A stretch of 64,000 nt of DNA, the filler included, from Kipferlia bialata (Eukaryota), in NCBI GenBank assembly GCA_003568945.1. It is 6 parts of 6 records of this genome, joined end to end, with 100 filler letters (N's around TTAATTAATTAA, not from the genome) between each part and the next. Parts side by side here need not be neighbours in the genome. Positions count along the whole stretch, not along the records: positions 1 to 10,001 come from BDIP01000919.1; positions 10,102 to 23,766 come from BDIP01000920.1; positions 23,867 to 37,528 come from BDIP01000921.1; positions 37,629 to 51,269 come from BDIP01000922.1; 2 more parts are not named here. One strand, written 5' to 3'. The number at the start of each line of letters is the position of its first letter. Within the stretch, counting starts at the first letter, position 1. The notes beneath the pieces are model-generated. The model did not search any database, was not told where the DNA came from, and saw only the letters and a program-made list of their open reading frames with translations. The position numbers and the translations under genes were made by a program. Below, in pieces: positions 236 to 46,930 of this stretch.

Positions 236-3072
236 CCTTTTTTTTCCCCCCCCCCCCCCCCCCCCCCTCTCTCTCTCTCTTCCTCTCACCCTCACCCTCC
301 TCTCTCTCTCTCTCTCCCCCTCACCCCCAGCTGGCATGGAGAGGAGTATCCATCTCTATCTTCCTCTGCTTATTATATACTATATCAATTAGTATTTACC
401 TTCCCATGTTATATAAGGATATGTAGTCCAACTATTATTCGTACTCCTCTCTCTCTCACCCCCAGCTGGCATGGAGAGGAGTCTCTCTCTCCCTCTCTCT
501 CTCTCTCTCTCGTTATCTCTCTCCCCCCCCCTCACCCCCAGCTGGCATGGAGAGGAGTCTGTCCAGACGCAGCAGGGGGAGCAGGTGCGTATGTATATAC
601 ACATGTTTATATAGATGGAGTTATACTGATAAGCTATAAATGGGGTTTAGTGTATTACTTAGAATATCAGCAGGGGGAGCACGTATGGCACTCCTTAGAT
701 AGATACGTCCTCGTGTAGTCTTTAATCATACCTTGCTCACTCCCAGACCCAATCTGCGCACCACTCCAGTGCCCAGGAACAGCAGCCTGTCACTGTCAGG
801 TAATACAATACACTTTTGGTGTTCACTCCCATTTATTATCATATATGTTATACTTGACATATACACTGTAAGGTTAAGATGCACACTTAGCATAACATTT
901 TGGTTCATTTTCGGCGTTTCTATATGGATTACAGTAGTGCATTAATATGTGTGTATTCCTGACCCTTAGGCTGGCGTGACAGGGAGGCCTCCAGGGTGGA
1001 GAGAGAGAGGACGAGGGACGGACCAATCTCTGTGGAGCAGGTGCAGTTCACATTGTATTTAACTACCTATTGATATACAGTATATATATGTATATGTGTG
1101 TGTGTATGTCTGATTCTCTCTGCTAACTCTAGGACCGCACCCAGAGCCAGTACGAGGAGCTCCTCAGCCCCCTGAGTCCCAGGGACATCACTAATCCAAT
1201 GGAGGTGGGGTTGTGTGTCACACAGTGTAGTCATTCATGTACTATATACTGATATATGATTGTTCCATACCCTCACCCCCAGGTCATTGCTAACACCCCT
1301 CCCAAGGGGGGCAAACCCCGCACCCCAAGGTAGGAATCAGTATGAATATCACAATACGCACACCACGGTCATTATAGTATATTTTTTGTACTTTAACACC
1401 AAGGCGTGATAAGCCCCCCACCGAGGGTGTTGTCTCCCCCTCTGCTGCCAAGCCCAACAGCCTGGTGGCAGAGTACAAGCAGAGGATGGAGGAGCTAGGT
1501 ACATGATATATATATACCTACACTGACTGAGTGTATATATGTTGGTTCTATTTTACATATACTTGACCCTCAGGTGTGTATGAGGACAACACTGAGGACG
1601 AGCTGTCCATTTACGTATACTATATATATATATACTCTCCATATATATATGTAAATATGTATATATATATACCTCACCCCAGGTGACTATGAGGATAATA
1701 CTGAGGACGAGCTGTCCATGTCTGTATCTCCCTCTCTCTCTCTATAGATATACCTCACCCTCAGGTGTCTATGAGGACAATACCGAGGACGAGCTGTCAA
1801 TGTCTGTGTCCATCAGTGAGGACGAGGGCGAGGGGGACTCAGTCCCGGCAGCATCCCTAGGGGCTCAGGTATATTTAGATATATATATATAGATATACCT
1901 GCCTGTGTAAGTATGGACCATATCCCATATCCCATATCACTCTTCGCCTCTCTCTCTCTATGTATGTATCTCACACCCAGCCCAGCAGGCCAGCCAGTGG
2001 CAGACCCACCAGCAGTAGACCTGCCAGTGGCCGCCCAGGTAACCATTATATTATTCATATATGTATGTACTGTTCTAGTGTTACTGATGTGTCTTCTTAT
2101 GCATAGGCAGTGGCCGCCATTGCAATACACACATATGATACTAGTTTCAACATATATATGTATAGTATTTGTCTGATGCATAGGCAGTGGCCGCCCTGGC
2201 AGCAGCATGGGAGGTAGACCCCTCTCTGGCAGACCACCCAGTGCTAGGCCAGGCAGTGCACTCAGGCAGAGACAGGTATGGATTGTATACTATTATATTT
2301 CTTGAATTCCTTGTATATTGTGAATAGTGTATAGTGAATCAAGATATACATACGTTGCCACTGCACTCAGGCAGAGACAGGTATGAAGTAATTGCATAAT
2401 ACATAAGTATCCACATAAATCTCATAAATTGTGATTACATTTATATTATTCGTGTCCATATATAGCTGACCCCAGCCTGAGCCCGTCCCTGAGGCAGAGT
2501 CCCCCGAGGTCATTGCAAAGGTATTGGTCAATATATAGTAGATATACACTGAGTCTATAGTCATTCTGTATGCAGTTCTGTATTATATACCCCTAACCCC
2601 CCAGGCCAAGTCCACTCTCAATACAAATATACCATAGATGCTTAATACTATTCTTTTGTATTATTATATATTGTATGATATACTATACATACCCCTAACC
2701 CTCCAGGCCAAGTCCACCCTCAAGCCCATCAGAGACAGGGAGTTCTCATCCAAGGTATATGCATATATGTATGTGTCTTCTACTTGTATTGGCCTTACAG
2801 CCCTGTTATTTACACTGTATTTATGTCTACTTATATATTCGTATATTCTTACCCCAGAGTCCCATTGTCAACATCACCCCTTATATATACTGTTAATAGT
2901 TTCATTACTATTAGTATTATATATACAGTATAATACCATATATTCTAACCCCAGGGCCCCATTGTCAACATCCACGGAGGGTACCCCACCATGACTGAGA
3001 CAGAGGACGATGACAGCATGGATAGCTGTCCCAGTGCTAGGTATAGTATATATACAGTATATATATATAGGC

Positions 3073-3125
<53 letters not shown>

Positions 3126-6100
3126 AGCATGGACAGCTGCCCTAGTGCTAGGTACTATATACATACTCCCTTTCTCTCTCTCTCTTTCTCTTTGTATATA
3201 TATGTATTTATTAGTAGTATACATTGTTAACCCATCAGGAACGTCCCCCGCAGTGCCGGTCTGAGACAGGCCCACAACGCATCAGGCATCCTGTCTGACC
3301 TTGACCTAGACGAAGGGAAGCACACCGACCACTCTGACCACTATGAGGAGTTCAGCGATGGTGTGAAGGAGGGAGAGAGAGAGGGTGTGCAGCCAAGTGC
3401 CAGGCTGGAGTCTGTGGTTGAGAGTGACGAGGAGACCGAGGAGGAGGAGAGCGAGAGGGAGAGAGAGAGTGACTCCGAGGTGGACGGTATCCCTCGCCTC
3501 TCAGACGATGAGGAGGTCTCCATCCACGATGCCTCCATCGCCAGTGAGTACGAGAAGGAGAGGGAGAGTGGGTCAGAGGGTGATGTCGATGTGCTGTCTG
3601 CTGTGGAGGAGGATGCTGTGGGTGTTCCTGAGGAGGGGGAGGAGGAGGAGGAGGATGTGTACCGGCCCTGTGTGTACTCAGAGCCAGAGTACTACGAGGC
3701 ACCGCAGCCTGAGGTGGTGGAGGAGGATGTGGTGACTGCCACAACTACCACTGCCACTACTGCTGCTTCTCCTGCTACTATTGCTACTGCTCCTGGTACT
3801 GTTTCCACTACTGCTGCAGCTGAGCCCTCTGCAGATGAGTATGCTGATGAGTTTGGTGATGAGGAGTCCTCTTCCCACCACGACTCTACCCCTGAGGCAG
3901 AGGCAGAGGCAGAGGCAGAGGCAGAGGCAGGTGTTGATGCTGCAGAGAGTGTGGTAGAGAGTGTGGTTGAGGAGATCAAGGAGGATGTCTCTGAGGTGGA
4001 GGTGGAGGAGGATACCCTCGAGACCCTTGACGGTCTGGACGCCCCTGTTGACACCACCGATGCAGTGTGTGAGGAGGGACAGGCTGAACAGGCTGAGTCC
4101 GGTACCAGCCTCGAGGTCTCCATCTCACCTCCTCTCTCTGATGCTGAGAGTGATAAGGGTGCAGCACCAGCCGTAGTAGAGACTGTGCTTGCTGAGGCTG
4201 CTGAGCAGGCTGAGTACGGGTATGGAGATGAGTTTGACGAGGAGGAGGAGGACGATGACACCTTTGTCAGGTCCAACCAGGCCACGACTCTCCTCTCTAG
4301 TGCCTCAAGACCCACCTCCCGCACCTCTAACCACTCCTCTAGTGCCTCTAGGCCTGCCTCCCCCGCCCCCCCTGCCACTCTGCCCTCTCCCTCCCCTGCC
4401 GTTGTCAACCCTGCATCACCACTGCCAGCCACACCCACTGTAGGTAATGAGACTCTTGTATACATTCATATACTTCTTTGTATGTACTATAGATACACAT
4501 ATTGTGTACATGTTCTAATGATACTATGATACTATGATACTGACTACTCTGCATCGCCACTGCCAGCCACTCCCACTGTAGGTAGTGTAGCCATAGTATT
4601 CCTTTATACCATAATACTATAATCATCCATATATAGAGATTATTCTGATGTGAAAGATCTTCATTTAGTCTAACTGTAGGTGTGACTGCCGATGCCCAGC
4701 AGAGTGGCACCAGCGGCACTGAGAGTGAGGCTCAGACATGTGACGCCACTCTGTTTGAGAAGGTGGCCAGTGCAGTGTCAGACGCATTTGACAGTGAGGT
4801 AGGATTGCATGTGTGTATATATACTCAGCATATATATGTTCATGAGAATTGTTGTGACTCTCTGATTCTAACATTGCAGGACAGCGACTCTGCCCGCTCT
4901 CAGGCTATATATATCTATATACCTATTTATCTATCTATGCAACTACAAACACCCTAATCATTCAGGACGGCGACTCTGCCCACTCCGAGCCTGCCTATAT
5001 ATATATGTATATATTCATATATGAATAGTAGTCTCTATTAATCTACACATCATATACTTACCACCCAGTCCTCCCACTCCGACGCTGCCCCTGAGGCCAA
5101 GGTTGAGGAGGAGACTGACAAGGAGAGTGAGAGTGAGGTTGTGATTGCCCCTCTGGACTCTGACAAGGAGGAGGAGGAGGGGGAGGATGTGCCTCTGGAG
5201 ACTGAGGAGGTGTGTGAGTCTGCCGCTGCTCCTGTCATTGAGAGAGAGAGAGAGAGAGAGAGAGCGCGCGAGAGTGAGAGAGAGAGTGAGGCCGAGGCCA
5301 GTGACAGCATCGTGCTTTCCTGTGACGAGGCAGACAATGCCGCACCTGCCCCTGTCCCAGAGGCAGAGTCTGAGGCAGAGTCTGAGGGAGAGAAGGATGT
5401 AGAGGTAGATGTCGAGACCAAGGCTGAGACCGATGCCTCCTCTGATGGTGAGGTCGTTGCAGAGACCGAGGTTGAGTCTGAGAAGGAGGCTGAGGTTGCC
5501 GAGTCCTCATCTGCTGAGGAGGAGGAGACTGAGGCTGCTGAGGAGGCCCAGGTCTCAGAGCCTGAGGTGGTTGCAGGGGCTGAGTCCTCCGAGTCAGAGT
5601 CCGATGCCGCTGAGGCTGAGGGTGAGGATGTGGTTGATGAGGCCTCTGAGTCTTCTTCTTCTGATTCTGCTCTCGAGGGTGAGGCTAAGGTTGAGTCTGA
5701 TGCTGAGTCTGAGGGGGAGGAGAGCAGTGCTGCCGAGGAGGTGGTCGAGGACGCTGCCACTGAGGTTGTCCAGGAGTCTGAGAAGGAGATAGAGAAGGTT
5801 GAGGAGGTTGAGGAGGAGGAGGCTGCTCAGGATGAGGCGAGTGAGTGTGAGTCTGAGTATGACACCACTGCCCCCTACATCCCGTGCACATACACCCACG
5901 TGGGGGAGGGGGAGAGAGAGGAGGTAGTCGATGTCGTCGAGGCTGACGTTGTGGCCGGCGTGGTTGATGAGGCATCCGACGTTGCAGAGGACGTTGCCGA
6001 CGTTGCAGAGGACGTTGCCGACGTCGCTGAGGACGTGGCTGAGGAGTACTCTGACTTTGAGGGTGATGGTGCCATATCCTCTGAAGATGAGAAGGGGGCA

Positions 6101-6367
6101 GAGGGAGAGGGAGAGGCAGGGGGAGAGGGAGAGGCAGAGACAGAGACTGTGGCTTCCGCCATCATGGGATTCATCCCCCCTGAGGAGGAGAGAGTGGAGG
6201 CAGAGGAGGAGGGAGAGAGGGGAGAGAGAGGAGAGAGAGGAGAGAGCACCGACCCCGTGACTGTGTTGGACACCGTCACAGAGGGTATTAAGGGTGCAGA
6301 GGGAGAGGCAGAGAGAGTGATGGGAGATGTTGAGCTCTCCGACGTTGGATCGATCTCTGACATGTAA
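69..6367 (+). CDS. Large multi-exon, disordered Glu/Asp/Ser/Pro-rich protein, 5' part outside window, unknown function
   Basis: GT-AG exons splice in frame (GMERSLSRRSRGSR-PNLRTTPVPRNSSLSLSG-WRDREASR...-VYEDNTEDELSMS...). Two long acidic exons (~3239-4442, ~5069-6367) end at TAA 6365-6367. Confidence 0.7.
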
Positions 6368-6465: not shown

Positions 6466-7151
6466 TCACTGAGCCGCCCTCTTTGCAGGGGTTTCCAACA
6501 AGAGATTGACGGGTTCTCTCTCTCCATCCTTCATAATCTCTCCATCTCTTGCATGGACTCTGTAGCATAGTAACTCTCTCGCTCTCATAGCATCCCTGTC
6601 TCTCCGCCTGACACCCTTAGGCAATGGCGCAACCCCAAACAGCACCCCAGTGTGTGTGTCTAAGTTAACCCCTAGAGCCGCGTCCAAGTGTATGGGTAGG
6701 TCATCCCATCTGGACCAGGCACGTGACACAGTGTCATAAGCATGGCAGGCACTGAGGATTAGACTAATACCATTGATATATATACATGTGTGTATGTGTA
6801 CATTGAATACAATATATCATCGGCATGGCAGGCACTGAAGTGAATTAGAGTAATACCATAAGTATACACCAATGTATAATATATACAAATTGACACAGTG
6901 TCATAGGCATGGCAGGCACTGAAGTGAAAAGAGTAGGTGCACACAATGGGTATATATTTATAGAGAGAAAAGTAGTGAGATATAGTGAGATATAGGAGAT
7001 GGGAGGGGGAGGGGGGGTGCATATAGGCAACCAGGAGTGCTATATATATACATACATGTATGTACATGCATACATATATATACCTCTCATGATCCAGCCC
7101 ACCAACCACCAGTATGTACTGGCCGATACTGAGAACGCCAGGGCTGTATGC
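6466..7151 (-). CDS. C-terminal exons of a kelch-like repeat protein
   Basis: Exon 7084-7151 (AYSPGVLSIGQYILVVGGLDHE) joins the exon starting ~6752 (SACHAYDTVSRAWSRWDDLP...). This gives the kelch hhhhGG...YD....W pattern. Confidence 0.65.
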
Positions 7152-7365
7152 CTATTGTCAGGGGTGGGGGGGGGTGCAGAGATAAGAGTGAGTGAGACAT
7201 AATCCAAAATAGCTACTAAACGAGGTGAGGAATAGAATGGGATGGTCAGCACTGCGAGAGGGGAGGGGGGGGGGGGGGGGGGGAGGGATGCCCTCTCAAA
7301 GGAGAATTTGTTAAAGCTAAAGAGAGAATCCAGGATATTCTCATAATCATAACAAAGATTCTTAC

Positions 7366-8726
7366 CTCAAATCCGTCATGACTGCTCCCGTTGCCGGAAC
7401 TATCAGTGGTGAATGTAACTGATGTCAGCTATACAATTCAGTGTATATGGAGTATACTCAACATATACTGTGTATAAGAACATGTATTGAGCCACTGTAG
7501 GAACTGTCAGTGGTGAATGTAACTGGAGTGAGAAGGGAGAATGAGAGAGAGATAGAGAGCCAGTAGAGGTGTAATTCGACAATATCTACTTCTATAGCAT
7601 ATTCTACGCATCTCCATCCTCCCTTCACTTTGTCACAGTGGTGTATATACATTTGTGATATGATACTACTACACACATTTCAATTCACGTATAACGTACC
7701 TATTACAAACACACACACATATATATATATATACACATACAATATAGGCACATAGGTTAATATAGGACATACTTACTACACAGAAGTCTGAGCCCATGTT
7801 GATAGAGAGGGTCTCACTCAAGTATATATACCTACATACATATAGTAGTAAGATTATATACCTATAACACAGACGTCTGTGAGTGAGTACCAGTCGATAG
7901 AGAGGTCTCACCCAGTACTATATACATACACATAGATATTCATACATATATATAGGAGATGGACAGAGTTATATATACCTATCACACAGACGTCTGTGAG
8001 TGAGTACCAGTCGATAGTCAGGGTCTCAGATAGGTCACCGGAGTATGTCTGGACTGAGTATAGAGTGACATCTATAAAGTGATACGGAGAGAGAGAGAGA
8101 GAGAGGGAGAGAGAGATAGAGTCTGAACTAGTTCACCAGAGTAGGTCTGAGGTAGGAATAGATTAAGAGCAAGAGAGAGACAGAGAGAGACAGAGAGAGA
8201 GTGTCTCGTAAGACTGAATGCATAGTTACTCACCTCGATCAGCGTCGCGTCGTTTCGTCGTATGTATAAGTTCTAATTATATAATACATATATGACACTT
8301 ACTCACATTGATCAGCGTCGCGTCGTAGCTTGAGCACTCATTAGAACTCCAGGTACTCTGAATGTTAGAAACAGAGAGAGATATACATATTATAGAGATA
8401 CAAACAGGGAGAGAGAGAAAGAGAATAGAACTCCAGGTACTCTGGGGTTAAAGAGGAAATATAGATAGATAAAGAAATTGAGAGTCTGGGGTTAAAGAGT
8501 AAGACATATATGGATATATAGATAGAGACATAGAACATAGGAAGATACAAATAATTGCAGACGAGAGAGAGAGAGTCGCCTCAATTCCCAACACTTCTCT
8601 ACATCTATAGTAAATACCTTGTAGACCGTTATCTTGTCCCATGATGATTGAACCTCTCCTTCTCCCTCTCCATACATCTAATCTTGCCGTAGCCTGACAC
8701 AATCTCACTCACTCTACCTCTCTCTC

Positions 8727-8766
<40 letters not shown>

Positions 8767-9944
8767 GTATGAAACCCTCGCAGACCCTGATCTTGTCGTA
8801 GCCTGACTCAATCTCTCCGGTGATATAGTATGTGACCCCAATATATAACAATATATAATATTATATAATAATAGTATAAAACAACATATAACAATATATA
8901 ATAATAGTATTATAGAGTACTAGTACCTGGTACACTCTGATCTTGTCCCAGCCTGACTCAATCTCTCCATCGATGAAGATAGTCAGCACGTCAGGGGCGG
9001 GGTAGGGCATGACTACCTGGTGTTTGTATGTATACTAGTATATGTATATAAGTAAATACATATAATGTGATGTGCATGATGAAGATAGTCAGCACGTCAG
9101 GGGCGGGGTAGGGCATGATGACCTAGCATTAGCATATATACTAGTATATGTATATTAGTAAATACACATATAATGTCAGCTGGTCTGGGGCGGGGTATGG
9201 CATAACTACCTGGTGTTAGCATACATACAGTATAAGTATAGTAGTATATACATATATCATAGATTGCGATGTGTATGTCAGGGGCGAAGTAGGGCATGAT
9301 GACCTTATGTTATGCAACATCTATCTATCTACTTATATACAATACATATGTATTTAGCCAGCACCTCAGGGGTGGGGTAGGCATAATGACTTATTTGAAA
9401 CTATCCTATACATATATTCATATAATATACGATAGTATGTATTAATACTTATATATATGTACATTATACAAATATAGTAAGCAGGTGACGAGTAGGGTAT
9501 ATAGAGAGAATACAAACACATGCGTACTCAATACATGTGTATAGCTGTGTATGTTCAGGGATATATATATATATATGTCCATGTCGACATAGGCATCATT
9601 GTATCATAGTAAATAATGGAGTATGTATACTATTCATATCTACTTCACAATATATCATGTATGTTCAGGGACTCACCCACTCTTCGTCCATGTAGTTGAT
9701 AGACTACTTATATACACAAATTATACTATGCAATTATCTTCTATCTCAATCTATATATCAATATCATATGGAACACTCACCCACTCCTCGTCCATGTTGT
9801 TGACATACTCATCAATGAATCATAGTGTATAATTACTATTCATATCTACTTCTCTATATAATGGAGTATCTGTCACATACCCACTCCTCGTCCATGTTGT
9901 TGACGTAATCATCATCGTCAACTGCAAAGGAACCGCTGAGACCA
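7366..9944 (-). CDS. CUB-domain-containing protein fragment (5 exons)
   Basis: Exons give ...DDDYVNNMDEEW / VVMPYPAPDVLTIFIDGEIESGWDKIRVYQ / STWSSNECSSYDATLIN / TYSGDLSETLTIDWYSLTDVCVI / VTFTTDSSGNGSSHDGFE. These match the CUB motifs Y.NN...W, E...D...VY and F.TD.S...GF. Confidence 0.7.
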
Positions 9945-10457: not shown

Positions 10458-10460
10458 CCA

Positions 10461-11207
10461 TTACTCTAGGATAGATGCTATCTGCAGTACTAGTGTCCTT
10501 CCACTCTGGAGCACAACACCCTTGACCCTGTCACCAACCTGAGAAGTGAGTAAGGGGTATATATATAGATACATATAGATACATATAGATACATATAGAT
10601 ACATACGTACATACCACACGCATGACCCTGTCACCAACCTGTATATAATACATATACACCATATCTATATACCTTCAGTGCCTTCAATGGAGACATGCCC
10701 AGGTGTGCATCTGTCACTCCGATATATATACATATACTATGTATATACACTATGGATACTACACTATACTATACCATACATACCTTCAATGCCTTCAGTG
10801 GAGACATCCCCAGGTGTGCATCTGTCACTCTGGCTGGGAAGGGGGAGGACAGGGGGTGGAAGTCAGTCTCTAGAGGTTAGCAAATGTATATATGTAATAT
10901 TCAACAAGAGTAACCCGTTCTCAGGGTAATGATCATACATATATATATATATATATATATAATGATAAGGGGGAGGACAGGGGGTGGAAGTCAGTCTCGA
11001 GGGGTTAGTAATCTCTTCACAGCCTCATGGGTATATACTGAAAGAGTGGGGGGTCAGAGGTATATGATACGTACAGGACATGGATAAAGGGGGGGGTCTC
11101 TCTCTCTCTGTATATTCACGTATATACTCATATACATGCGTGTACTATGCTATACCTGATGGGTTCTCCACATTGGGCCTGAGGAGTGCAAAGACAGACA
11201 GGGTAGC
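10461..11207 (-). CDS. 3' exons of a protein ending in an S1/OB-fold-like segment
   Basis: In-frame splice ATLSVFALLRPNVENPS-ETDFHPLSSPFPARVTDAHLGMSPLKALK-VGDRVKGVVLQSGRTLVLQIASILE*. 'LKVGDRVKGVVL' is S1-like. Confidence 0.5.
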
Positions 11208-11257
11208 CTGGGGATAAGGGGGGGGGGGGGGGGAGAGGGGGGGGGGGGGGGGGGGGG

Positions 11258-11289
<32 letters not shown>

Positions 11290-11336
11290 AGAGAGGGTGA
11301 GAGAGAAAGAGAGAGAGAGAGAGAGTATCTGCATAC

Positions 11337-11724
11337 CCATCACTGCCGCCAAGACAGATGACCAGGACCACTGTGACCACGGCCACAAGGACAACACCTG
11401 GGGTTAGACACATAAAGATAGAGTGTATAGTACTACATAGTGTATGTATGCAATCCCACCTGCCACCCCCAGCACTACCCCCTTCTGTGTCTTGGTCAGG
11501 GCACGGAGGCCAGAGGCATCCTGGCTGGGGGTCAGGGTACATACATAAAGAGGGTATATATATAGACAGTAGCCAATGAGTGCATATCGGTGTGGATAAT
11601 GGAGAACACAATTGAGTAGAGACATGTGACACGATCACTCCCCCTCTCCATCTCACCTCTCCCCAGGGGATGGGATGCCCTTGTCCCCACTCTGCAACAG
11701 CCCGTCCTTCTCAGTCCCACCCAT
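11337..11724 (-). CDS. 5' exons of a type II single-pass membrane protein
   Basis: MGGTEKDGLLQSGDKGIPSPGE-SQDASGLRALTKTQKGVVLGVA-GVVLVAVVTVVLVICLGGSD has a hydrophobic span after basic residues. Continuation across the poly-G tract at ~11220-11290 is out of phase with the S1-like exons. Confidence 0.55.
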
Positions 11725-11864
11725 GGCTGTGACACTGACCCATGAGGAGAAGATAGATCTGGGCCAGATAAACTCGGTTACCGAGTGTGTTTGTTCTGGG
11801 GGTCTAGGAATACCTCTGGTTCAGGACCCTGATTCAGGACCTGAACAACCTTCTCTGTCTCTCG

Positions 11865-13237
11865 ATGTCACCCAGTGATGACGCTGTGGTTAGCACGGCA
11901 TGCTGGGATGAGGAGGGGGACACCTTGCAGAATGTCAGAAGGATAGGTGGGAATATTGAGGATGGACTCTCTCTCTTCTGTCTTCCTTCCACCTACCTCA
12001 CCCCAGTGTTCATCCTTGGGCAGAGTGTGCCTGAGGAGAGAGAGATTGATGGTCTGGACCCTTCTTTCATACATGTCAAGGTGACGGTGGGGGGGGAGGT
12101 GGTAGGTATCTATGTATCAAGTATCTTCTGACATTGAATCACACTCGGTGTTCAACCACCTCTGATATATGCTCTCTTCCTCTGATATATGCTCTCGTCC
12201 TCTGATATATGCTCTCTTCCTCTGATATATGCTCTCTCCGTCTCTCTATTACTGCATGTTTCTCCTTGCTTCCCTTCATGTCTCTCTCCACCCCAGCCAC
12301 CGCTAGGATGGACGCACTCTCTCTCTATCTGTCTCTCTGTCTCTCTCTTTCTCTCTCTCTCTATCTGGGTTTCCCTTGCTGTCCCTCCTCCTGCCTCCTC
12401 TTAGGAACGGCCAGGATTGACCCCCTCTCTGTATCTCTCTCTATCTTAGTCCCTCTCCATGTCTCTCTTACTATACCCCCCCCCCCATCCTAGGCACTGC
12501 CAGGATGAACCCCCAGGATGGACACATTGGGAGGGTGGCTGTGCTGGCAGGGTACAGGGGCAGAGGTTATATATATGCATACATTCTACAGTAGGTATTA
12601 GTATAAATATGTGTATGAGAATGGGAGGTTGGCTGTGCTGGCAGAGGATAGGGGCAGAGGTACTTCATGTGTATTATACATCATATTCTATAAAGTCTAT
12701 TATTGATGGATATTCGTAGATATAGGCCTAGGTAAATTCGGGTTTGGGTAGTCTGATAGTGGTACCGATATTCTATACCCTCCGTTGCCCCCTACGCTCT
12801 GTTCCCACACTGACATGCTGATGCATTTCTTTGTTGGATACTATCTATTCACATTGTATTCGGTCACTTTCTCCCCCAGGTCTTTGGTACACACAAATAT
12901 GTGTAATATCTAGTAGTATGTATATTTCTTGTCTTGATGCTCCATAGTCAGGTTGTCTATGTGCCCTTCCTCACCCCCAGGCCTAGGCTGTATGCTTATG
13001 CAGGAGCTGCACCGCCAGGCACATGCCCTAGGCCTAGACCACACACACCTCAGCGCACAGCTCACATCTGAGGCCTTTTACTCATCACTCGGTGGGGGGT
13101 GCATAGAATTACTTGTTGTATACTTCACCTGTTTACTCGATAAGTCAACTGCGTCTAATACAGGGTATGTCCGTGCCAATGATCGGGTGTTCCTGGATGC
13201 GGGTATGGAACATGTTGACATGCACAGGAGGGTGTGA
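11865..13237 (+). CDS. GNAT N-acetyltransferase, ElaA/YjcF-like, 5 exons
   Basis: MSPSDD...VRRI-VFILGQSVPEEREIDGLD...GGEVVG-TARMNPQDGHIGRVAVLAGYRGRG-LGCMLMQELHRQAHALG...LSAQLTSEAFYSSLG-YVRANDRVFLDAGMEHVDM. Contains the acetyl-CoA-binding R.RG.G motif and the FY..LG and F.DAG..H..M signatures. Confidence 0.88.
12159..12236 (+). repeat. Intronic tandem repeat, ~4 x 20 nt (CCTCTGATATATGCTCTCTT)
   Basis: Directly visible. Confidence 0.85.
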
Positions 13238-13959: not shown

Positions 13960-16900
13960 CTATGCCATCTGGTGCATGTGTGCCAGGTCCTGGGAGTGTT
14001 GTACTGCCAGTGCCCTGGCCCTGTCCCTGGCCAGGGGGAGGGCATGCTCTATCAGCACGGGGAGGTATCTGGGAGGGTCAGAGGGATTGCTTACAAATGT
14101 GTATGGTGTGAGAGTACACGCACACTATCCCACCTGTCAGCCAGCTCTGTGAGCCCCAGTGTGTCGAGGGCCTCAATCTCACAGGTGCGGGAGGTCTAAG
14201 GTTAGAGGTTACTGTGGAAGACTCACACGTAGTGTAGGGCAAATATATGCTATATATACATACAGCACATAATTATCAGGAGCTCATATGAGATATCTTG
14301 TACAACTCCACTATCACACAAAGACATATATAGGTATAAAGTCGACATCTTGTAAACTATATACCCTCCCCCCACCTCCATCATATCCCTGATGGCCAGA
14401 TATACTCACATATATAGACATATACGTACACAGTTGGCATCTTGTACAGTATACCTCCATCATATCCCAAATATACAACTCCACAGTATATACCTCCATC
14501 ATATCCCTGAGGGCCCCTGCCAGTATCTGGTTGACAGCTGGGGGCACGGGCATCACTGGTGTAAGAAGGGGGGAATGATGTGTAGTGATTGTATATATAC
14601 ACTTATGAACAATGTACGGTATATGACAGCTGGGGGCACGGGCATCACTGGGGTGAGAGATGGGCATATATATATATATACATATGGTAACATAGGGTAT
14701 ATATCAGTCCCTGACGTACTCTGTGCCTCGTCCAGCTCCTCCCCCTCCACTCTCCCCCTGGCCCTGTCCATGGCTCTCTCCAGCTTCCGCAACTCCACCC
14801 GGGCTCTCTTACGTCCCCTGTGGGTGAGGAATGAGATCACACTAGAGGTGAAGTGACACATGCCATGTATTGCTATGTATGCAATGGAGTGTATGCACCT
14901 GTCACTGAGTCTGAGCCATGCCCCGTCTGACACCTGGGCTCTGTAGGTAAAGGGCGGGAGACCAGCACCACTGTCATCAACCTGGCAATGAGGGGTATAT
15001 GTAGTGACTATTGAAAAATTTGAGTATGTGAGTATCGGTGGTGTACATATGGTAGGGCTCCTATCTGCATACCTGGCATGGGAACACCCCTATGGGTATG
15101 AGAGAGGGGGCGCAGGCAGGGATACCCATCACCTGCAGGGTGTGCTGGACCTAAGGGGTCAGAGGGCATCACAAATACATGGAATACTAGATATATTGCA
15201 TATACCCACCTTGTGTGCCCCCTTCATGTACTGCAGCAGGATGCTCACTCCATATGGGTCTGCATCGGCCAGGCCTAATACAGGCACACCGGCCCTGGGA
15301 GTGGGGGGGTGGGAAGAGTGTGGGAGGTGAGGAGGTATATACAGGTGTGAGATTGGCTATCCTCTCTCCCATACCTAGCCAGCCCAGCAACCATAATCTT
15401 GCTAAGGGTGTCAGGGAAACCCTTGCCTGGAGGGTGAGTGTGTGCTATGCATAATGATAGAGTCTATTGAGAGAGTGCACACAGCACTATATCACTCCAA
15501 CCTGTGACAATATACTATGTATGCTATATCACACCTGTGAGCAGTATGATGTTGAGCCTAGTACACAGGTCCCTGTGGACCAGTCTAGAGAACACAGTGT
15601 CCTTCTCTACCTGGGGTGTAAGGATAAGTACAGAGAGATGTGGTTCCAACAGCCATCTGTCTATGACACACACTACTATAGATCGAAAGTGACCAATTCA
15701 TATAATATGCGTTAGTATATGCACTCACCACTAGCACTGCGTCTGCCCGAGTCTCCATCCTGTGGAATGACACGAGGTCTGCTGTGATGCACAGGGGGAC
15801 ACCGGGGGACAGGTCGATGTAGCCAGAGGCAGTGGGGCCTTAGGTCAGAGACTACTCTAATGATGCACCTACAAACAGACAAGCCAAAGATGTAGTGTAG
15901 ATACGTATATTCAGATATATATGTATAGATATATGTACATACGTACAGTGAAACCTGGCGTTCCCGGCTATGAGCCCCTTTGCAGTGCATGTGATGCCCA
16001 GACAGTGTCTAGGGACACGAAGGAGGGCCTCAAGCAGACTGAAGGTGAGACACTACATAAATATACATAGTATATATACAATATATATATGAGTATACAC
16101 CCCCTCACTCTATGGCTGTTGTTGCCATGGACTGTGTCTGGAAGATGTCCGGCCTCTGGTAGTAGAAGGACCGCTGGGTCCTGACAGTGCCCGAGGAGGG
16201 GGAGAGGGGGTTGGGGCTAGGCCTACTAGACTGGAGGTGGGGGCGGCCCTCTCTCTTGGGCACAAGCTCCCCAGGCTGCCTGCCCCCACTCTCATTCATG
16301 GGTGGGTAGAAGGGGAGGGACGGGTCCATGTACCTGGGGGTGGGTATGTGGATCAACCTGTCAAGAGAGTAGGGTGTACATCTGGTACATAATGTAATGT
16401 GTAAATGGGTATGAGTGTGTACCTCGACTGACTGGGTACTGGACACCTGTCCCTGTCTCTGTTGCACACCAGGTTCTCAGTGACGCTGGCCATCACAGAC
16501 ATCAGAGACGCATACAGCCTGGGGGGGAGAGGGGGGATGAGGGAGTGGTGAGAGTGTGTGTTTGAATATATATAGTATACAGATGACCCACCTTGATGCA
16601 TTGCTGTTGGTGCCCCACCGTGCCCCACTCTCCCTGTCCCTCAGCCTCCGTCTCTCTCTCCTGGCCAAGGCCTCGCCCTCTCCCTCTTCCCCGTTCCCAT
16701 ACACCTCCCCTTCCTCTCCAGGGCCAGTGTCAGTACCAGTGTCTGAGGGATAGGACACAGCTGGGATGAGAGAGGGGGGGGGGGTAGGGGGGTAAGAGAG
16801 AGACTTGAGAAAAGTGATATGGGCACATGATTGCACACAGAGAGATGAGTAGAGGTATCACCCCATGGCTACCTGGGAATGAGGGTGCCTTGGGACTGGG

Positions 16901-23866: not shown

Positions 23867-24079
23867 CCCCCCCCCCCCACCTCCCGTCATTCTGTCTCTC
23901 TCTCACACACCCTTCTATACTGACACTAGGATTGTCCCCCAACCATAGCCTCAACTATTCCCTCTCTTTGTCTCTGTCTGTCTCTGTCTCTGTCTCTCTC
24001 TACTATACTGATTCTAGTATCCCCGCCATTGCCCCCAACCTCTCTCTCTCTCTCTCTCTCTCTACTATACTGACCCAAG

Positions 24080-31417: not shown

Positions 31418-31744
31418 GGAGAGAGAGAAACAGAGAGACAGAGAGAGAGAGAGAGAGGAGTGTGTATGACAACTGGAGTGTGTTGATGACAGTGTGTGTG
31501 TGTTTAACTTTGGGTGTGTATGTGACACTGTGTGAATAGATGTATGTGTGTAAGTCTCTTGCGTTTAAGCACTCTTTTAGCACCACCACTACACGAACAA
31601 CATATTTATACAGTGAGACAGACAGAACACGTCAGTTCAGCTGGAACATACATGGAACACACAGACATCAGTCCAGACACTATCAATACACTCTTCCATC
31701 TATCCTCTAGACAGAGACTCTATTCACTAGAGTGCTGAGTGGAC

Positions 31745-34838: not shown

Positions 34839-37528
34839 CTATGTCTCTCTCTCCCTCTCTCTCTCCTTTCCCTCCCCTGGGGTGTCTCTATCGAGGGTTG
34901 TGGCAGTCCTGATACTGGACCCAGCGTCCATGGTGAGACGGGGTCTGATGCGGGCCTGAACATTAGATAGGATGCCATCGTGTAGAAACTGAGTACAGAG
35001 GTCTAACCTTGATGCAGTTTCCCACTGCCCCCCCGACCTCTGAGCCCAGTCTGCTACTTGCATGGGGGTCGAACACCAGACACTCCCCAACACCACAGTG
35101 GGAAAGGGATAGCAGAAGGGAGGCACTAGGGTGGGTACAGAGTTCCACACGTACTCTCTATATATATGTGTGTGTGTATGTGTATATATTAATAGGAACG
35201 TACCTGTCAAGGCCTAGATGCAGACTCTTGCAGAGGTGGCTGGCCCAGGTGGGGCTGAAAAACCTGTATAAGTGTGTGACACTCATACAGTAACCAATCT
35301 TGAATAATTATCATTGAAGTCCAGGTGAAGAGAACGCTGAGGACTATAAATTGAATAACCAAAACACATTGGTCAACAAGTAGACTATATAAAACCAATA
35401 AATCGTACTTGTGCATCACTGCGAGGGAACAGAGCTCTAGGAACTCTCTGGGGATATCCGAGGGAGACTGGGTGGAGAGGACAACCCTGGAGTCAGAGAG
35501 TGACTGTCTATTCCCGCGCCACTAGTGAAAGGATGCATGTGCACATGCGAGAATATACACGCATACATATAGTCTACACCAACCTGCACCCGCAGTGCCT
35601 CATCTGGCGCACAGTGGTGAGGAGGGTCTTGCTGAGAGGGCCTGGCCCATTAGGATAATATATATGGAAAGGCATCACAATATACAATGCGTGATCACTG
35701 GTGAAGTGGCCTCCCTCCCCCGTATGGACAAGCAAACCCAGACTGAGAATACTGACACACTCCACCCATGTCCTATGTCCGTACCTTCGACCTGTAGGTA
35801 CTTGTGTGCCTCATCCAGCACAAGCAGCTTGTCATATGTGGCATGGGAGCCAACAAACAGCTGGGACACTGCGGTTAGAGACTTGCACAGAAATGCAACC
35901 AAAGTAATAATGACCATACACATCCTGATATCCCTTCTGAACACACGCATACCTACACTGAATATGGCGTTAGCGTCCTCGGGACCCAGTAAGGGGTCGG
36001 TGAGGTCACATATCACTAGGGACCCTGGGGTTAGGTGAATGAAGTGTGAGTACAACTAAAACAGAGAAAGGCACTGTCCATCACTATGCTAGAGTTATGG
36101 AGGATGATGACAGAGGAGAAAGAATACGTCCCAATATCATCATTCCCACTTGGGGATGTATATACTTGTATACATATACGTGCGCGCGCAAATACATGTA
36201 TGCATATACCTGGCTGCAGTGACGACAGCAGGCTGATACAGGATGTGGCATTGTGTGCTGTACTCTCCTTGTTGATGTCAGACTCCATGACAAGGCCTGG
36301 GGTCACCAAAGAGATTACCACACCAAATTCACTATGCGTACTGCAATCATGTGTATACCTGCACTAATGTCTGGAGTATACTATACAGGGGATACAATTC
36401 CCATTTACATGTATACATATATATACATGTGTCTACTCTACTTGCCAGCATGTCCACCCTACACTAATGTCTAGAGCATCTAAATTACATCAAGAGAACA
36501 CTAGACTATACACAATGGAAACTGTATTCATGTGTGCATACCTGCCAGCATGTCGACCCTCTGCTGCAGGGGCTGCATCTGGGCAGGGGTGAAGCCAGCA
36601 CTGACAGTGAGAAGACTGACTACCAGTAGAGAGTAAGGAGGGACGGTGCACTAGTCTTCATGTGGGAGGCAATACCCACTTTGTGATGAGTGTATCATAA
36701 ATATTAAACACACAAACACATACTTTGCGATGAGTGTGAGAAAGTCCGTCCAGGTCGGTCTGCGCCCTGAACGCTGGACCTAGGGTGAGGGTAGAGTATA
36801 CAAGAGAGGAGAGATTGGATATACAAGAGGGATGTTGGAAGACATGGTTATCCATATACACCTCACCCTTCTGAGCAGTGCCATGAGCACCCCCTCGTAT
36901 AGGGGCACCTTCCCACTGTCCAGACCCATCAGCATCCTGAGGTAGGAGGCATCCAGGTCCTCAAAGGGGAACAGAAGGGGGTGGACCTGGAGTGAGGAGA
37001 CACACTTTGAATATAGAGATTACCTACTTGGAAAGGCACTACCAGGACCAGTACCAGACACACCCACATCTATACAAGTATACAAAGGAAACCATATACC
37101 TGAACGTTGGGGAATGAGCTGAAGAACTGCTGCCTCTGCCTGTAGTTGTGGGGTGAGACCAGCACCACACAGGGTGATGCCACTACCCCTGCTGCCCCTA
37201 CTAGGCCAAGGCCTATGCTCTCACAGTAGTTGACCTGGGGGTGGGGGAGGTGCGGACCTCACTATTAGCAATATTGTGGAGTCGGGGGGGGGGGGGGGAT
37301 AGAGTGTGTCTCACCTGGGTCCTGTCATATGAGCACACGAGAGTGACCATGTTGGTGCCCCTGAAGTAAGGGTGGGTATAGAGAGTGAATATATATAGGA
37401 CATAGAGTGGGGGTGATATGAATCTGGTCGCCAAATACATATTAGTGTACGCACTGGGTGACAGGAGGACATGTGAGCATGCATGACTCCACTATGCTGT
37501 TGAGGGTGTGGCTCTTGCCACTGTTCTG
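34839..37528 (-). CDS. P-loop ATPase of the HerA/FtsK/VirB4-like superfamily, multi-exon, 5' truncated
   Basis: Walker A QNSGKSHT (37505-37528), ICDLTDP, Walker B LLVLDEAHKYL (~35795-35828), VRQMRHCGCR, VSTQSP, MH-RFFSPTW, and C-terminal RPRLTMDAGSS. Confidence 0.82.
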
Positions 37529-37628: not shown

Positions 37629-37679
<51 letters not shown>

Positions 37680-43433: not shown

Positions 43434-44875
43434 ATGAGTGCGTCCAACACCCCCAGGAGTCGCCACACGGCGGCTGGGAAAAGCGCCTTTGTCATCATCT
43501 CAGAGCGAGACAACCGACGTTATAGGTTACTGGTCAAGGAGAGGTATGCAGCAGTATTGTTATATCAGTCTCTAAGTCTGAGTCAGAATTTGACTGCACT
43601 CTCACCCCCCAGTGCACTGCCCATATTGAAGATTAGCAGCATCAAGAAGAACCTTGCCAAGAGTGCGGGCATCCCCCCCCATGTGCAGCAGCTGTATCTG
43701 GCCACAATGCCTCACAGAGAGCTAGGTGACACTGTGGTTGGGAGGGAGTACGGCCTGTGTGGGGGAATGGAGCTGATCCTCCGTATCAAGGGGGACCCTG
43801 TGAGGGAGAGGGCGACTCCCCGAGTGAGTGGGTCTGTGGGCCCTACCTCCAGCACCCCCTATGTGGGTGAGGGCCAGTCCCTGCCTGCCCCCATGCCCAT
43901 ACCCAGAGGGGTGGCATCGGAGAGGGTGCAGCACAGAGAGAGGGAGAGTGTGTCCAGGGAGAGGGGGTCTGGGCGGGTGGCCGACTCATACATGTCCAGG
44001 GGTGATGGGTACAATGCCATGAGGGAGTTCTTCTCCCCCTATCCTCAGCCATCAAGTGCGCAGAGAGAGAGGGAGAGGGAGAGGGAGAGCCCCCAGGTAG
44101 GGGTGTGGCCTGAGGGTACCGTTGGGGGTCAGAGCATGGGGAGGGACCAGGGTGAGAAGGGTCCCTACCGGGTGTCCCAGTCTGGGGAGAGAGAGAGAGA
44201 TAGAGGCAGACAGGGCCCGCCCCTTCCCTCCCTGCCGCCCCAGACCAGACAGACAGAGAGGTACCAGCCACCCCTGCCACCCCAGAGGGAGAGGGACAGG
44301 ATGGGAGAGGACAGAGACCCCTACTCCCACCTCCCCCCTGCTGCCTCTGACACACCCCTGTCGGTGTCACAGTTCACAAGGTCTAGGTAGGGAGTGTTCG
44401 CATGAAATCTACTCTCTCTTTAGTCCCCCCCCCCTCCCTTACTCTCTCTCACTATCTGTATTGTCTGATATTATATACAGACTTAGTATCCCTCCCATGA
44501 GCAGGTCCCAGTCTGTGCAGCCTGGTGACCTTCTCTCTCTCTCTCTCTCTATCCCATATATTATATTCGTGCTCATGCCAGGTCCCAGTCTGTGCAGCCT
44601 GACCTTGTCTCTCTCTCTATCCCATATATTGTATACTATACATATTACACCCACCCAAGGTCCCAGTCTGTGCAGCCTGGTGAGCGGGGTGCCTCCACCG
44701 TGCCCTCCCTGGAGTATGCAGTGGCCAGGCTGACACAGTCCCTGGCATCGGCTCAGACACAGCTGGCACAGGTATGGTAGATGCATATGTATATGTATAA
44801 ATGTATATATATATATATGTGTGTGTGTGGTTACATATCCCTGGCATCGGCACAGACACAGGTGGCTCGGGTAGA

Positions 44876-44911
<36 letters not shown>

Positions 44912-46930
44912 ATATATGTAAGCATAGGACATCCTCCCTCCCTCGCCCTCAGGAGCGCATAGCCGCTGCCTCCCAGACCGACTCTCTCTGTCTCTGTCTC
45001 TATCTCTATCTATATATATCTCTCTCTCTATATGTATTTATACATGGATGTCTCATCCCCAGGAGCGTATGGCCGCTGCCTCCCAGACGGACTCTGCCTG
45101 TGTTGAGGCATCTGAGACACAAAGGAGACTGAGTGCAGAGTACCAGCAAGTGGTGGCAGACCTAGGTACTAATCTCTATGTATATGTGAGTATAAATATA
45201 GAGAGAGTAGCTATCTGATCCCCAGTGACCCAGATGGGCAAAGAGGACATGAGTATTGTCGATATATATATATAGATTACCTCTCTCTGATACCAGTGAC
45301 CCAGATGGACAAGGAGGAGAGAGAGATGGAGGCCCGGCATAGGGGGGAGAGGGAGAGGCAGCAGAGGCGCCTGCAGAGGGAGGGTGACGAGAGGGCAGAG
45401 AGAGAGAGGCAGAGGGAGAAGGCGAAGGCTGAGGCAGAGAGAGATGCCGCCAAGCTCCACAGAGACGTGGCACTGCTCGCATCGGCCATGCAGGTATGAG
45501 GCTGAAGTATCTACATCTATATACTATACATATCCGAATCTATATCTCTGCCCCACTCCAGGGTGTGCGGCAGGAGGCTGCGAGGGAGAGAGAGCGTCTG
45601 GAGCGGCACTACGACCAGGAGAAGGCGTCTGTGGTGGATGCCCTGAGGCTGAGGGAGGAGCAGCGGCAGAAGCTGCGGGACACGGAGAGAGACAACCTGA
45701 GAGACAGGGGCAGAGAGCACGAGCTAAGAGTAGGCCTGGCGGTGCTGAGGCAGAGGGTGAAGGAGAGGGAGGAGATGTGCAGGGCAGTGGAGGGTGGCCT
45801 AGGGGATGTATCCCTGGTGGATGACGGGCAGGATGACGATGTGATTGTGACAGCAGAGGGGGTCAGGGAGAGGCTGGTGGCCGAGACACACCGCAAGAAC
45901 GCCATCCTGGATGCACTTGATAGAGTCCTCGGCCCTGTGCGTGTGTATGTCACACTCAGACACCTGGGCAGTGGCATTGATGTTATTGACTCTACCTCTG
46001 TGGCTGTCAATGGGGTGCCCCTGAGTGTCACGGGGGTGGTCAAGCCTGCTGCCCTGACGGCACCCAATGTGCACACCATAGTGCGCCCTGCCCTGACAGG
46101 TGGGTACATCATATAATCGTACTACTATATATACTACTCAATGCTACTATACATCTGTATATACTGCCACTGATACTCAGGTGGGTGCACCATCGTGTGT
46201 CTGGGCCCATCCAGTGGGGGCAAGAGCCACCTGCTGTACGGGGACCCCTTCTCCCCCTCCCACTCCCTGCCTGGCCTTGTCGAGCTGATATGCGCAGAGG
46301 CTCTGGGTGAGGACATGGGTGGGTCCAGTGGGGTGGACATTGCACCCCTGGGGGACAGCGAGAGGGGTGCTGTGTGCGTGCTCTCTCTCTCCCTGGGTGT
46401 GAGGGTGGGTGGCGCCATGATCGACCTCTTGTCTGATGATGCTGAGGCCAAGGTGCTCTCCCCCACCCTCCCCCCCTGCGGTGACCCCTGTGTGAGTATG
46501 GAGGGGGTCAGGGCCAGGTTGAGGCAGGGGCTGAGCCGGGCAGAGGCCTACGAGGCTGAGGGTCTTGTATGTAGAGTGGCTGTGCATGGGAGAGACTCCT
46601 TCACCAGGGTGACCACTCTAGTGGAGATGAGAAGTCCCACCCCCTATCTGTCTGACACCCTGGCTGCACTGGCAGGAGGGGAGGACCTCCCACCCGCCGC
46701 ATGCGCCTCTGGGGAGGAGGCCTGGCTGGGACTGGAAGGCGCAGACAAGGTATATATGCCCATCACATATATATACATATATATATACCCGTAGATACTA
46801 CTCTCTAACCCTTCAGGTCATTGTGCTGGCCATGCTCAGCCACGATGCCTCAGCCGGGGGTGCTGTGGCAGAGGTGGTCAAGGCCATACCTACTGTGCGT
46901 AATGTGGCCATCAGAGACCTGGGGTTGTAA
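43434..46930 (+). CDS. Ubiquitin-like domain + coiled coil + degenerate C-terminal kinesin-14-like motor domain
   Basis: UBL: ISSIKKNLAKSAGIPPHVQQLYL...LGD...EYGL..G.EL.L. E/R-rich coil, then neck-like ILDALDRVLGPVRVYVTLR and P-loop CLGPSSGGKSHLLYG. Stop at 46928-46930. Confidence 0.68.

What the first reader, a model, noticed from the sequence alone, without database searches (positions are those of the whole stretch)
1574..45095. Echo copies differ from the expressed exon almost only at synonymous sites
Seen in nine pairs aligned by eye (hand-picked, not a random sample), 24 of 27 differences are synonymous: 1574 vs 1765 (GTG/GTC, AAC/AAT, ACT/ACC, TCC/TCA); 1683 vs 1765 (3 of 4); 3123 vs 3012 (GAC/GAT, TGC/TGT, CCT/CCC); minus-strand 10673 vs 10784 (GGC/GGG, TTG/CTG, CTG/TTG, including first-position Leu swaps); 24561 vs 24632 (GGC/GGA twice); 25866 vs 25726 (CTG/CTA, GCG/GCA); 26528 vs 26431 (2 of 3); 27643 vs 27777 (TAC/TAT, GGT/GGG, GAC/GAT); 44953 vs 45063 (2 of 3). 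A neutral intronic duplicate should show mostly non-synonymous differences. So these intronic pieces were under coding selection: either imported from diverged functional alleles/paralogues or still reaching mRNA. Decayed copies also exist (27242, 27315, 30826 with an indel), suggesting an age series.
Basis: partly seen in the sequence, partly recalled or inferred. Interest (0 to 1): 0.9.

Follow-up and report, generated by a model that had tools for sequence, protein, structure and literature searches.

The report
Retired allele edges inside Kipferlia introns
In the free-living protist Kipferlia bialata, nearly a third of the introns examined hold short copies of the neighbouring exon edge that differ from it at silent positions far more often than a dead copy should and sit beside largely unrelated intron DNA; they are likely leftovers of other working versions (alleles) of the gene, stranded when recombination installed a new intron.

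Summary
The effect is real but overstated. The window is Kipferlia bialata. A blind census finds 67 junction-anchored echoes (12-56 nt) in 43 of 145 introns, with about 0.25 false hits expected. In 63 with a known frame, 66 of 120 differences are synonymous (55%, not 89%); codon positions 28/19/73; omega 0.25 (0.17-0.35). That beats neutrality and also the correct null for a dead copy beside a selected exon (omega 0.5, p 1.6e-4). Amino-acid changes are conservative. The intron DNA beside each echo is mostly unalignable with the cognate intron, spacers are about one intron long, and the nearest echo is the least diverged (10 vs 1). In calpain, DNA contigs confirm the echoes and an RNA-like contig skips them. 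Best reading (0.5): break repair copies an exon edge plus almost a whole intron from a diverged allele, then joins it to the old edge, which becomes the echo. The donor was not seen. Closest known: amphioxus 'mirages', whose units are 81-100% alike throughout. This scan noted mirage-like echoes before in sea urchins and worms; in one urchin gene the silent excess was explained by one-sided selection, which fails here.

The parts
542..6366 (+). Gene A (acidic low-complexity protein, 15 exons modelled): 10 echoes in 14 introns, at 668-682 D, 1574-1607 A, 1683-1725 A, 2107-2118 A, 2362-2380 D, 2605-2621 A, 2858-2875 A, 3123-3151 D, 4549-4581 D, 4975-4995 A (D = exon end plus donor, A = acceptor plus exon start)
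1574..1725 (+). Two acceptor-type echoes of the exon starting at 1765, each with its own AG and an unrelated 60-75 nt intron-like flank
   Evidence: (6 synonymous and 1 non-synonymous in cores)
6466..9944 (-). Gene B (7 exons modelled): 14 echoes in 6 introns; the 864-nt intron 9880-9017 holds 2 donor-type and 3 acceptor-type echoes plus decayed ones; 9078-9122 is the one echo whose flank is over 90% like the cognate intron
10460..11524 (-). Gene C: echoes 10967-10997 A, 10673-10719 D (3 of 3 synonymous, with both Leu first-position swaps), 10616-10638 A (2 of 2 non-synonymous)
11667..13215 (+). Gene D: echoes 12405-12425 A and 12622-12659 D (3 synonymous, 5 non-synonymous together)
13960..16333 (-). 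SPO11/Top6A-like gene: echoes 14624-14647 A, 14455-14468 D, 14376-14397 D
   Evidence: PF21180
20640..23598 (-). Gene Gm: 1 echo (22268-22281 A) in 14 introns
24080..31419 (+). Calpain-family gene (P0002, 606 aa, identical to my 25-exon model): 23 echoes in 24 introns, omega 0.19
   Evidence: splicing of the part laid confirmed
24732..25054 (+). Intron with donor-type echoes 24814-24869 (55 of 56 identical, flank unrelated) and 24924-24946; RNA-like contig uses the first donor
26061..26407 (+). Intron with three donor-type echoes (26135, 26216, 26318), spacers 74, 58, 66 and 68 nt; skipped by the RNA-like contig
27052..27500 (+). Intron with four donor-type echoes (27128 identical to the exon; 27240, 27313, 27398 11-12% diverged, one with a stop codon); spanned by one DNA contig
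34839..37528 (-). Gene J: echoes 36680-36693 D and 36442-36460 D; the latter is preceded directly by a sub-threshold copy of the next 12-nt micro-exon (36459-36470), with a full-length intron on both sides
43434..46929 (+). Gene Nn: echoes 44505-44528 A, 44582-44601 A, 44838-44870 D, 44953-44985 A, 45226-45247 A
47904..51184 (+). Gene O (frame uncertain, left out of codon counts): echoes 48112-48143 D, 48740-48754 D, 48829-48844 D, 50712-50728 A
51434..58950 (+). Echo-free controls: gene P (0 of 13 introns) and kinesin gene Q (0 of 13)

Best explanation
The echoes are intronic partial copies of the adjacent exon edge with their splice signal, and they are likely retired edges of other working alleles, left when homologous repair copied a new exon edge and intron from a diverged homologue. 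Shown: partial copies, splice dinucleotide mostly kept, two-sided coding selection in their differences, mostly unalignable intron flanks, intron-sized spacers, nearest echo least diverged, skipped in the main calpain mRNA contig. Inferred steps: (1) alleles in the ancestral population had similar exons (about 15% synonymous divergence) but introns too diverged to pair; (2) a break 15-55 nt inside an exon edge is repaired by one end invading the homologue through the exon and copying the rest of the edge plus most of the homologue's intron; (3) synthesis stops before the far splice site, and the nascent strand is joined to the other end by Pol-theta-type end joining instead of annealing; (4) the old edge, with its GT or AG and its old intron, is pushed about 100 nt into the intron; repeats stack new echoes next to the exon. 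Products that rebuild a complete acceptor-exon-donor unit would be removed by selection. Echoes then decay neutrally (about 3-4%).
For: omega 0.246, kappa 1.4; LRT p 1.8e-13 against 1 and 1.6e-4 against 0.5; bootstrap by intron 0.17-0.35, by gene 0.20-0.42; unchanged with a GC/AT bias term (0.24); simulated dead-copy null with the same trimming gives 0.39-0.50, reaching the observed value in 0 to 6 of 300 runs across nine settings; holds in RNA-backed calpain alone (23 of 39 synonymous, omega 0.19, p 0.004). 36 single-base amino-acid changes average BLOSUM62 +0.08 against -0.66 expected (p 0.006); differences shared by sibling echoes are synonymous in 6 of 7. Four-fold sites differ at 45 of 254, zero-fold at 45 of 1095, yet flank alignment scores have median 4 against 34 for an 8% copy, also beside the 14 identical echoes; only 7 of 66 adjacent intron pieces reach z>3, while a copy with 40% substitutions gives median z 4.2. 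So echoes were born with a different intron. Faint homology above same-gene controls remains (p 2e-5). Spacers on the broken side have median 75 nt, 3 of 67 under 45 nt, against 82 for echo-free introns. Nearest echo less diverged than farthest 10 to 1 (p 0.012). Donor-type precedes acceptor-type in 7 of 7 mixed introns. Machinery fits: metamonads lack Ku/NHEJ, Fornicata lost Rad51A and carry two Dmc1 (PMC8516963 section 8); K. bialata has PolQ, XPF, Msh2, Msh3 (its Supplementary Data 2); Dmc1-type residues raise tolerance of mismatched donors (PMC6719624); aborted SDSA finished by Pol theta is documented in Drosophila (PMC2895639); the species is reported diploid (PMC5874029); a SPO11-like gene lies in the window.
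Against: No donor allele was seen: the DNA run shows no other letters over the calpain stretch laid, no other Kipferlia locus was found in metagenomes (best of 5 loci 61% over 31 aa). Alleles with about 15% synonymous divergence but near-random introns need very fast intron turnover or exon-only homogenisation; even donor +3..+6 match in only 52% (39% random) and acceptor -3..-12 in 55% (43% random), lower than orthologous introns at that divergence should give. Up to five different introns at one junction demand many old alleles. The scarcity of short spacers is not explained by the repair model alone. Some sibling echoes break at nearly the same place (25200/25310; 27128-27398; 28705/28846) and a few units are clearly related (9078-9209, 44505-44601, 48112), which points to later unit duplication. 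The 11 most diverged echoes are 20 synonymous to 29 non-synonymous. Frames outside calpain rest on my own models.
Confidence: 0.5

Rival explanations
1. Old mirage-type tandem duplications whose exon part is kept young by unequal exchange or gene conversion with working exon edges (of this or another allele), while the intron part decays to saturation.
For: Also gives omega below 0.5 in a polymorphic population, a nearest-is-most-similar gradient, kept GT/AG (61 of 67) and faint flank homology. Shared breakpoints among some siblings and a few related units fit unit amplification. Unequal crossing-over is proposed for mirages (PMC3087553).
Against: Needs frequent conversion between 12-56 nt repeats 100 nt apart without collapse between them (inference). 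Fresh duplications with intact flanks should be common at steady state; only 1 of 67 has a flank at 80% or more. Sibling spacers are as unrelated as exon-echo flanks (1 of 21 pairs scores above 12).
Confidence: 0.25
2. A foreign or newly made intron-like sequence is inserted at the junction with a long target-site duplication (introner-like DNA element or reverse-spliced intron), and later allele exchange in the exon adds the silent differences.
For: Spacers are intron-sized and about 70% look unrelated even at donor +3..+6 (estimate inferred). An RNA-level process would explain why similarity stops at the splice site.
Against: No two of the 145 introns share a non-repetitive copy (best local score 17). 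Flanks are closer to the cognate intron than to others of the same gene (16 of 63 rank first, 6.4 expected). A second process is needed for omega below 0.5.
Confidence: 0.1
3. Plain tandem duplication from the sister chromatid; the echo decays neutrally and only the exon is selected.
For: Simplest; explains part of the bias (36-42% synonymous expected); private differences are 12 of 30 synonymous; an earlier scan note explained a sea-urchin case this way.
Against: Predicts omega about 0.5 (rejected, p 1.6e-4), random amino-acid changes (rejected, p 0.006) and flanks about 92% identical (seen in 1 of 67).
Confidence: 0.07
4. Echoes are alternative exon pieces that still reach mRNA, or selected decoy splice sites.
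For: Splice sites of echoes score as well as the used ones (donor median 3.8 against 4.4, acceptor 6.3 against 6.1); 17 of 29 acceptor-type echoes have a donor-like GT within 25 nt; two low-depth RNA-run contigs cover an unspliced echo-rich intron (depth 2.6 and 3.4 against 51.8).
Against: 0 of 38 donor-type echoes have an acceptor; 0 of 63 swappable in register; lengths show no multiple-of-three bias (23/20/24); stop and indel copies exist; the main contig skips 9 echoes at 6 listed joints, lies on the last acceptor at two more introns, and has no echo-specific base.
Confidence: 0.05
5. Assembly artefact: haplotypes laid in tandem.
For: Short-read assembly of a diploid (PMC5874029); an identical calpain is annotated on a second scaffold.
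Against: Unbranched DNA contigs cross many echo junctions at flat depth 380-454 with no other letters or gaps (for example 26105-28277); up to five copies per junction cannot be two haplotypes. The run may be the source of the window, so this tests the assembly, not another individual.
Confidence: 0.02

Closest known systems
Amphioxus 'mirage' minisatellites (globins BflGb6/BflGb9, Adh3, TnC, PGBD5; PMC3087553 and PMC3902484, passages read)
   Same: Head-to-tail copies of exon-intron boundaries of either side, many keeping AG/GT, units of tens to about 160 bp, normal splicing.
   Different: BflGb6 units are 81-100% identical; here only the exon part (93%) and the splice consensus are shared, the intron part is mostly unalignable. 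A few loci there, 43 of 145 introns here. No coding-selection signature is mentioned in the passages read.
Aborted SDSA finished by Pol theta end joining (Drosophila, PMC2895639, passages read)
   Same: One end copies from a template, stops early and is joined to the other end; the proposed mechanism.
   Different: Shown there for a transposon gap with a sister template; here inferred for diverged homologues, fixed at many splice junctions, untested.
Tandem exon duplication and mutually exclusive exons (recalled)
   Same: Intronic exon copies with silent-biased divergence.
   Different: Those are whole exons with both splice sites and are expressed; echoes are partial, one-sided and skipped.
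Introners and intron gain with target-site or tandem duplication (recalled; PMC4974935 and PMC2809761 seen only as search listings)
   Same: New intron DNA flanked by direct repeats.
   Different: No new intron position is made, no repeated element was found in the window, and the two copies differ like two selected alleles.

Membership tests
Mirage minisatellites | Tandem copies spanning an exon-intron boundary, 5' or 3' side | tested here: met
   38 donor-type and 29 acceptor-type echoes, unit median 98 nt
Mirage minisatellites | Copies keep AG/GT yet splicing is normal | tested here: met
   61 of 67 keep the dinucleotide; RNA-like contig skips them in the calpain stretch laid; other genes untested
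Mirage minisatellites | High identity over the whole unit, intron part included (81-100% in BflGb6) | tested here: not met
   1 of 67 flanks at 80% or more; 7 of 66 pieces z>3
Mirage minisatellites | Copy number differs between haplotypes or cells | not testable with these tools
   One sample, contigs only, no second allele seen; no other isolate
Mutually exclusive duplicated exons | Complete exon with acceptor and donor | tested here: not met
   At most 61% of the exon; 0 of 38 donor-type with acceptor; 0 of 63 swappable
Mutually exclusive duplicated exons | Found in mature mRNA | tested here: not met
   Calpain stretch only, assembled contigs drop rare forms
Introner-type insertion with target-site duplication | Inserted pieces form repeat families | tested here: inconclusive
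   None among 145 introns of the window; genome not available
Introner-type insertion with target-site duplication | Flanking copies identical at birth (omega about 0.5 later) | tested here: not met
   omega 0.25
SDSA plus end-joining products | Copied tract matches a homologous donor | not testable with these tools
   No donor allele available
SDSA plus end-joining products | Microhomology or templated insert at the join | not testable with these tools
   Needs the donor sequence; chance matches are absorbed into the echo alignment
SDSA plus end-joining products | Recombinase and Pol theta present | tested here: met
   From literature tables: Dmc1 x2, PolQ g1038.t1, no Ku

The most novel reading that the evidence does not exclude
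K. bialata, which lacks NHEJ and Rad51A, swaps whole introns between hyper-diverged alleles one splice junction at a time; failed swaps leave an ordered fossil stack of extinct alleles (exon edge plus its intron) inside about 30% of introns, tens of thousands genome-wide if the window is typical, and its reduced spliceosome ignores these full-strength decoy sites by exon definition.
Probability: 0.4. Interest if true: 0.85.

Novelty: new variant of a known kind. Interest (0 to 1): 0.72.

Why it matters
It would be a route of intron growth and intron replacement not described in the papers I found, and a record of past allelic diversity and sex readable from one genome of a protist with no population data. 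It gives thousands of natural minimal pairs (same exon edge, strong splice site, used or ignored) for how a reduced spliceosome (87 of 174 proteins, PMC6679479) picks sites among short introns. It also warns annotators: a gene finder trained on this window pulled many echoes in as exons.

Tried and rejected
No whole genome is held for the window, so no genome-wide census and no search for spacer donors. No holder is on record as RNA; X2 is RNA by guess and by its spliced contig. Reads cover only 23870-29100; the 3' part of calpain and all other genes have no read support. Metagenome scan with calpain gave 5 distant loci and no second Kipferlia. P0003, a second calpain record, was tested as a donor: 606 of 606 identical, so uninformative, and its DNA could not be fetched. 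Recursive splicing: exon ends in AG in 20 of 26 echo-bearing against 87 of 119 others, exon starts with GT in 4 of 24 against 25 of 121, no enrichment. Fixed duplication length: echo length and spacer are uncorrelated (rho 0.005). Mutational bias: kappa 1.4-1.6 and no GC-to-AT excess large enough. Link of echo density to intron GC across 12 genes not significant (rho -0.36, p 0.25), though echoes cluster by gene (p 1.7e-5). Flank similarity does not track echo divergence (rho 0.03). The automatic gene finder was dropped for hand-curated models because it included echoes. The PNAS paper on internal gene duplication was not held. Literature searches listed nothing on such copies in Kipferlia.
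Full report
Source. The window is seven contig pieces joined by a fixed N-padded linker; proteins of two pieces map to contigs of 13641 and 13662 bases, the lengths of those pieces. So the echoes occur at several separate loci. A calpain exon retrieves P0002, named 'peptidase C2, calpain family, partial [Kipferlia bialata]', identical over 606 residues to my 25-exon model. K. bialata is a free-living fornicate with 51 Mb, 124,912 introns and a k-mer profile read as diploid (PMC5874029; parts 1-3 of 6 read, supplements not read). Those parts do not mention intronic exon copies.

Census. I curated 18 gene models with 145 GT-AG introns. Each of 290 exon edges was aligned to its own intron and, as null, to the introns of other genes: 79 hits at E<0.03, of which 67 reach the splice junction with score 12 or more (one duplicate dropped). 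They lie in 43 of 145 introns; 38 copy an exon end plus donor, 29 an acceptor plus exon start; 12-56 nt, median 24, never more than 61% of the exon. The same edges against non-cognate introns of the same gene predict 0.25 false hits among 68. GT is kept in 34 of 38, AG in 27 of 29. Echoes cluster by gene: 23 in calpain, 14 in gene B, 10 in gene A, none in 26 introns of genes P and Q (p 1.7e-5).

Are they real and used? For 23870-29100, unbranched DNA contigs of run X1 cross echo junctions at depth 380-454 with no other letters, one of them from 26105 to 28277; X1 may be the source of the window. One 2216-nt contig of run X2 (RNA by guess, depth 51.8) is spliced GT..AG at six listed joints that skip nine echoes, always first donor to last acceptor, lies on 27777 and 28523 rather than their echoes, and shows no other letters; seven further joints were not shown. 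Two contigs of depth 2.6 and 3.4 cover the unspliced intron 27171-27489. Contigs drop rare forms, and other genes were not covered.

Synonymous bias. In 63 echoes with a usable frame (4 in gene O left out): 120 differences, positions 28/19/73, 66 synonymous; pS 0.181, pN 0.042. The right null is not omega 1 but 0.5, since a selected exon keeps gaining silent changes beside a dead copy. Simulating the null through the same trimming gives 0.39-0.50. The 36 single-base amino-acid changes are conservative (53% with BLOSUM62 of 1 or more against 29%; p 0.006); 1 of 48 changed codons is a stop. Differences shared by sibling echoes are silent in 6 of 7, private ones in 12 of 30. Conclusion: exon edge and echo diverged mostly while both were working coding sequence, with some neutral decay on top.

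Flanks. A dead copy 4% diverged at zero-fold sites should have flanks about 92% identical. Instead identity drops at the splice consensus: donor +3..+6 52% (random 39%), acceptor -3..-12 55% (43%); 40-nt flank scores have median 4 against 34 for such a copy, also beside the 14 identical echoes; 12 of 66 adjacent pieces reach z>2 and 7 z>3, mean 1.1, where a copy with 40% substitutions and 8% indels gives 4.2. A faint excess over same-gene controls remains (p 2e-5), and a few units are plainly related (9078-9209, 44505-44601, 48112). No intron is a copy of another in the window.

Architecture. The piece on the broken side of an echo is 75 nt at the median, 3 of 67 under 45 nt where uniform breaks would give 68%; echo-free short introns are 82. 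It is an intron without its far splice site: 0 of 38 donor-type echoes have an acceptor in front; 17 of 29 acceptor-type have some donor-like GT behind, a weak motif in this AT-rich DNA. Donor-type precedes acceptor-type in 7 of 7 mixed introns; one sub-threshold exception at 36442-36470 has a whole 12-nt micro-exon copy fused to the previous exon's end between two full introns. In 12 series the echo nearest the working junction is less diverged than the farthest in 10, more in 1, equal in 1 (p 0.012), although overall dispersion is Poisson-like (p 0.24).

Mechanism (inferred). If alleles share exons but not introns, recombination can pair only exons. A break in an exon edge, one-ended invasion of the homologue, synthesis through the edge and most of the homologue's intron, then end joining to the old edge gives exactly: new edge, new intron lacking its far site, old edge with its splice signal, old intron. 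It predicts allele-type differences, a different intron at birth, intron-sized spacers, and newest echoes next to the exon. Synthesis that reaches the next exon would give a clean intron swap and leave no trace; synthesis that just passes the far splice site would make a false exon and be selected against. Metamonads lack Ku; Fornicata lost Rad51A and have two Dmc1 (PMC8516963, passages and section 8); K. bialata has PolQ, XPF, Msh2, Msh3 (four rows of its Supplementary Data 2). Dmc1-type residues stabilise mismatched pairing (PMC6719624, abstract and section 17); Pol theta ends aborted SDSA in flies (PMC2895639, passages). Weak points: no donor seen, intron divergence is very high for the silent divergence, many alleles are needed, and the lack of short spacers needs selection or a minimum tract. 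The main rival, old duplications refreshed by exchange with working edges, shares the key element (exon-limited exchange among alleles) and may act after the first event.

What is known. Amphioxus 'mirages' are tandem copies of exon-intron boundaries with normal splicing and 81-100% unit identity (PMC3087553, PMC3902484, passages). This case works like a mirage at the splice level but fails the whole-unit identity test. Earlier notes of this scan report echo or mirage arrays in sea urchins, annelids and an octopod; one explained 43 of 107 silent differences by one-sided selection (unchecked AI notes). That null is rejected here. Searches listed no report of this in Kipferlia; most subscription journals are not searched. 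K. bialata keeps 87 of 174 spliceosomal proteins searched, and no snRNA candidates were found (PMC6679479, passages).

Verdict. Observation partly confirmed; coding-selection inference supported; expression of echoes not supported; allele-swap origin 0.5. New variant of a known kind; interest 0.72.

Noticed in passing
P0003 against window 24080-31419: A second K. bialata calpain record on a 26132-base contig is 100% identical in protein over 606 aa and adds 80 N-terminal residues; allele, recent duplicate or assembly redundancy is open. No diverged second copy appears.
   Followed up: partly
window 24330-24360: The calpain has Asp where the catalytic Cys is expected (motif recalled, not tested by alignment); it may be a non-catalytic member.
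   Followed up: no
window 25200-25232: This donor-type echo has no GT; it runs on as Leu-Gln-Gly-like codons, unlike the present next exon, as if from a version with another junction or an older sequence.
   Followed up: no
window 4880-4995: Two acceptor-type copies start with 9 extra coding bases that the present exon at 5069 lacks: a possible acceptor shift recorded in the echoes.
   Followed up: partly
window 36359-36470, - strand: A 12-nt micro-exon with both splice sites, and a fused copy of it with the previous exon's end inside the upstream intron.
   Followed up: partly
window 8618-8818, - strand: Echoes of gene B carry multi-base codon changes (Trp>Tyr in two copies, Arg>Thr), more like a diverged functional version than random decay; 12 codons in the census have two or more changes.
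   Followed up: partly
window 13960-16333, - strand: An intact SPO11/Top6A-like gene, itself with three echoes.
   Followed up: partly
window 47904-51184: Gene O cannot be read in one frame without using an echo as an exon; possible pseudogene or wrong model.
   Followed up: no
window 59526-59615: Intron whose 3' end resembles the end of the exon before it and lacks the usual C-rich acceptor; possible intron gain by duplication.
   Followed up: no
window 38727-41539: 911-aa RING plus TRAF/Sina zinc-finger repeat protein with a single intron and no echo.
   Followed up: partly
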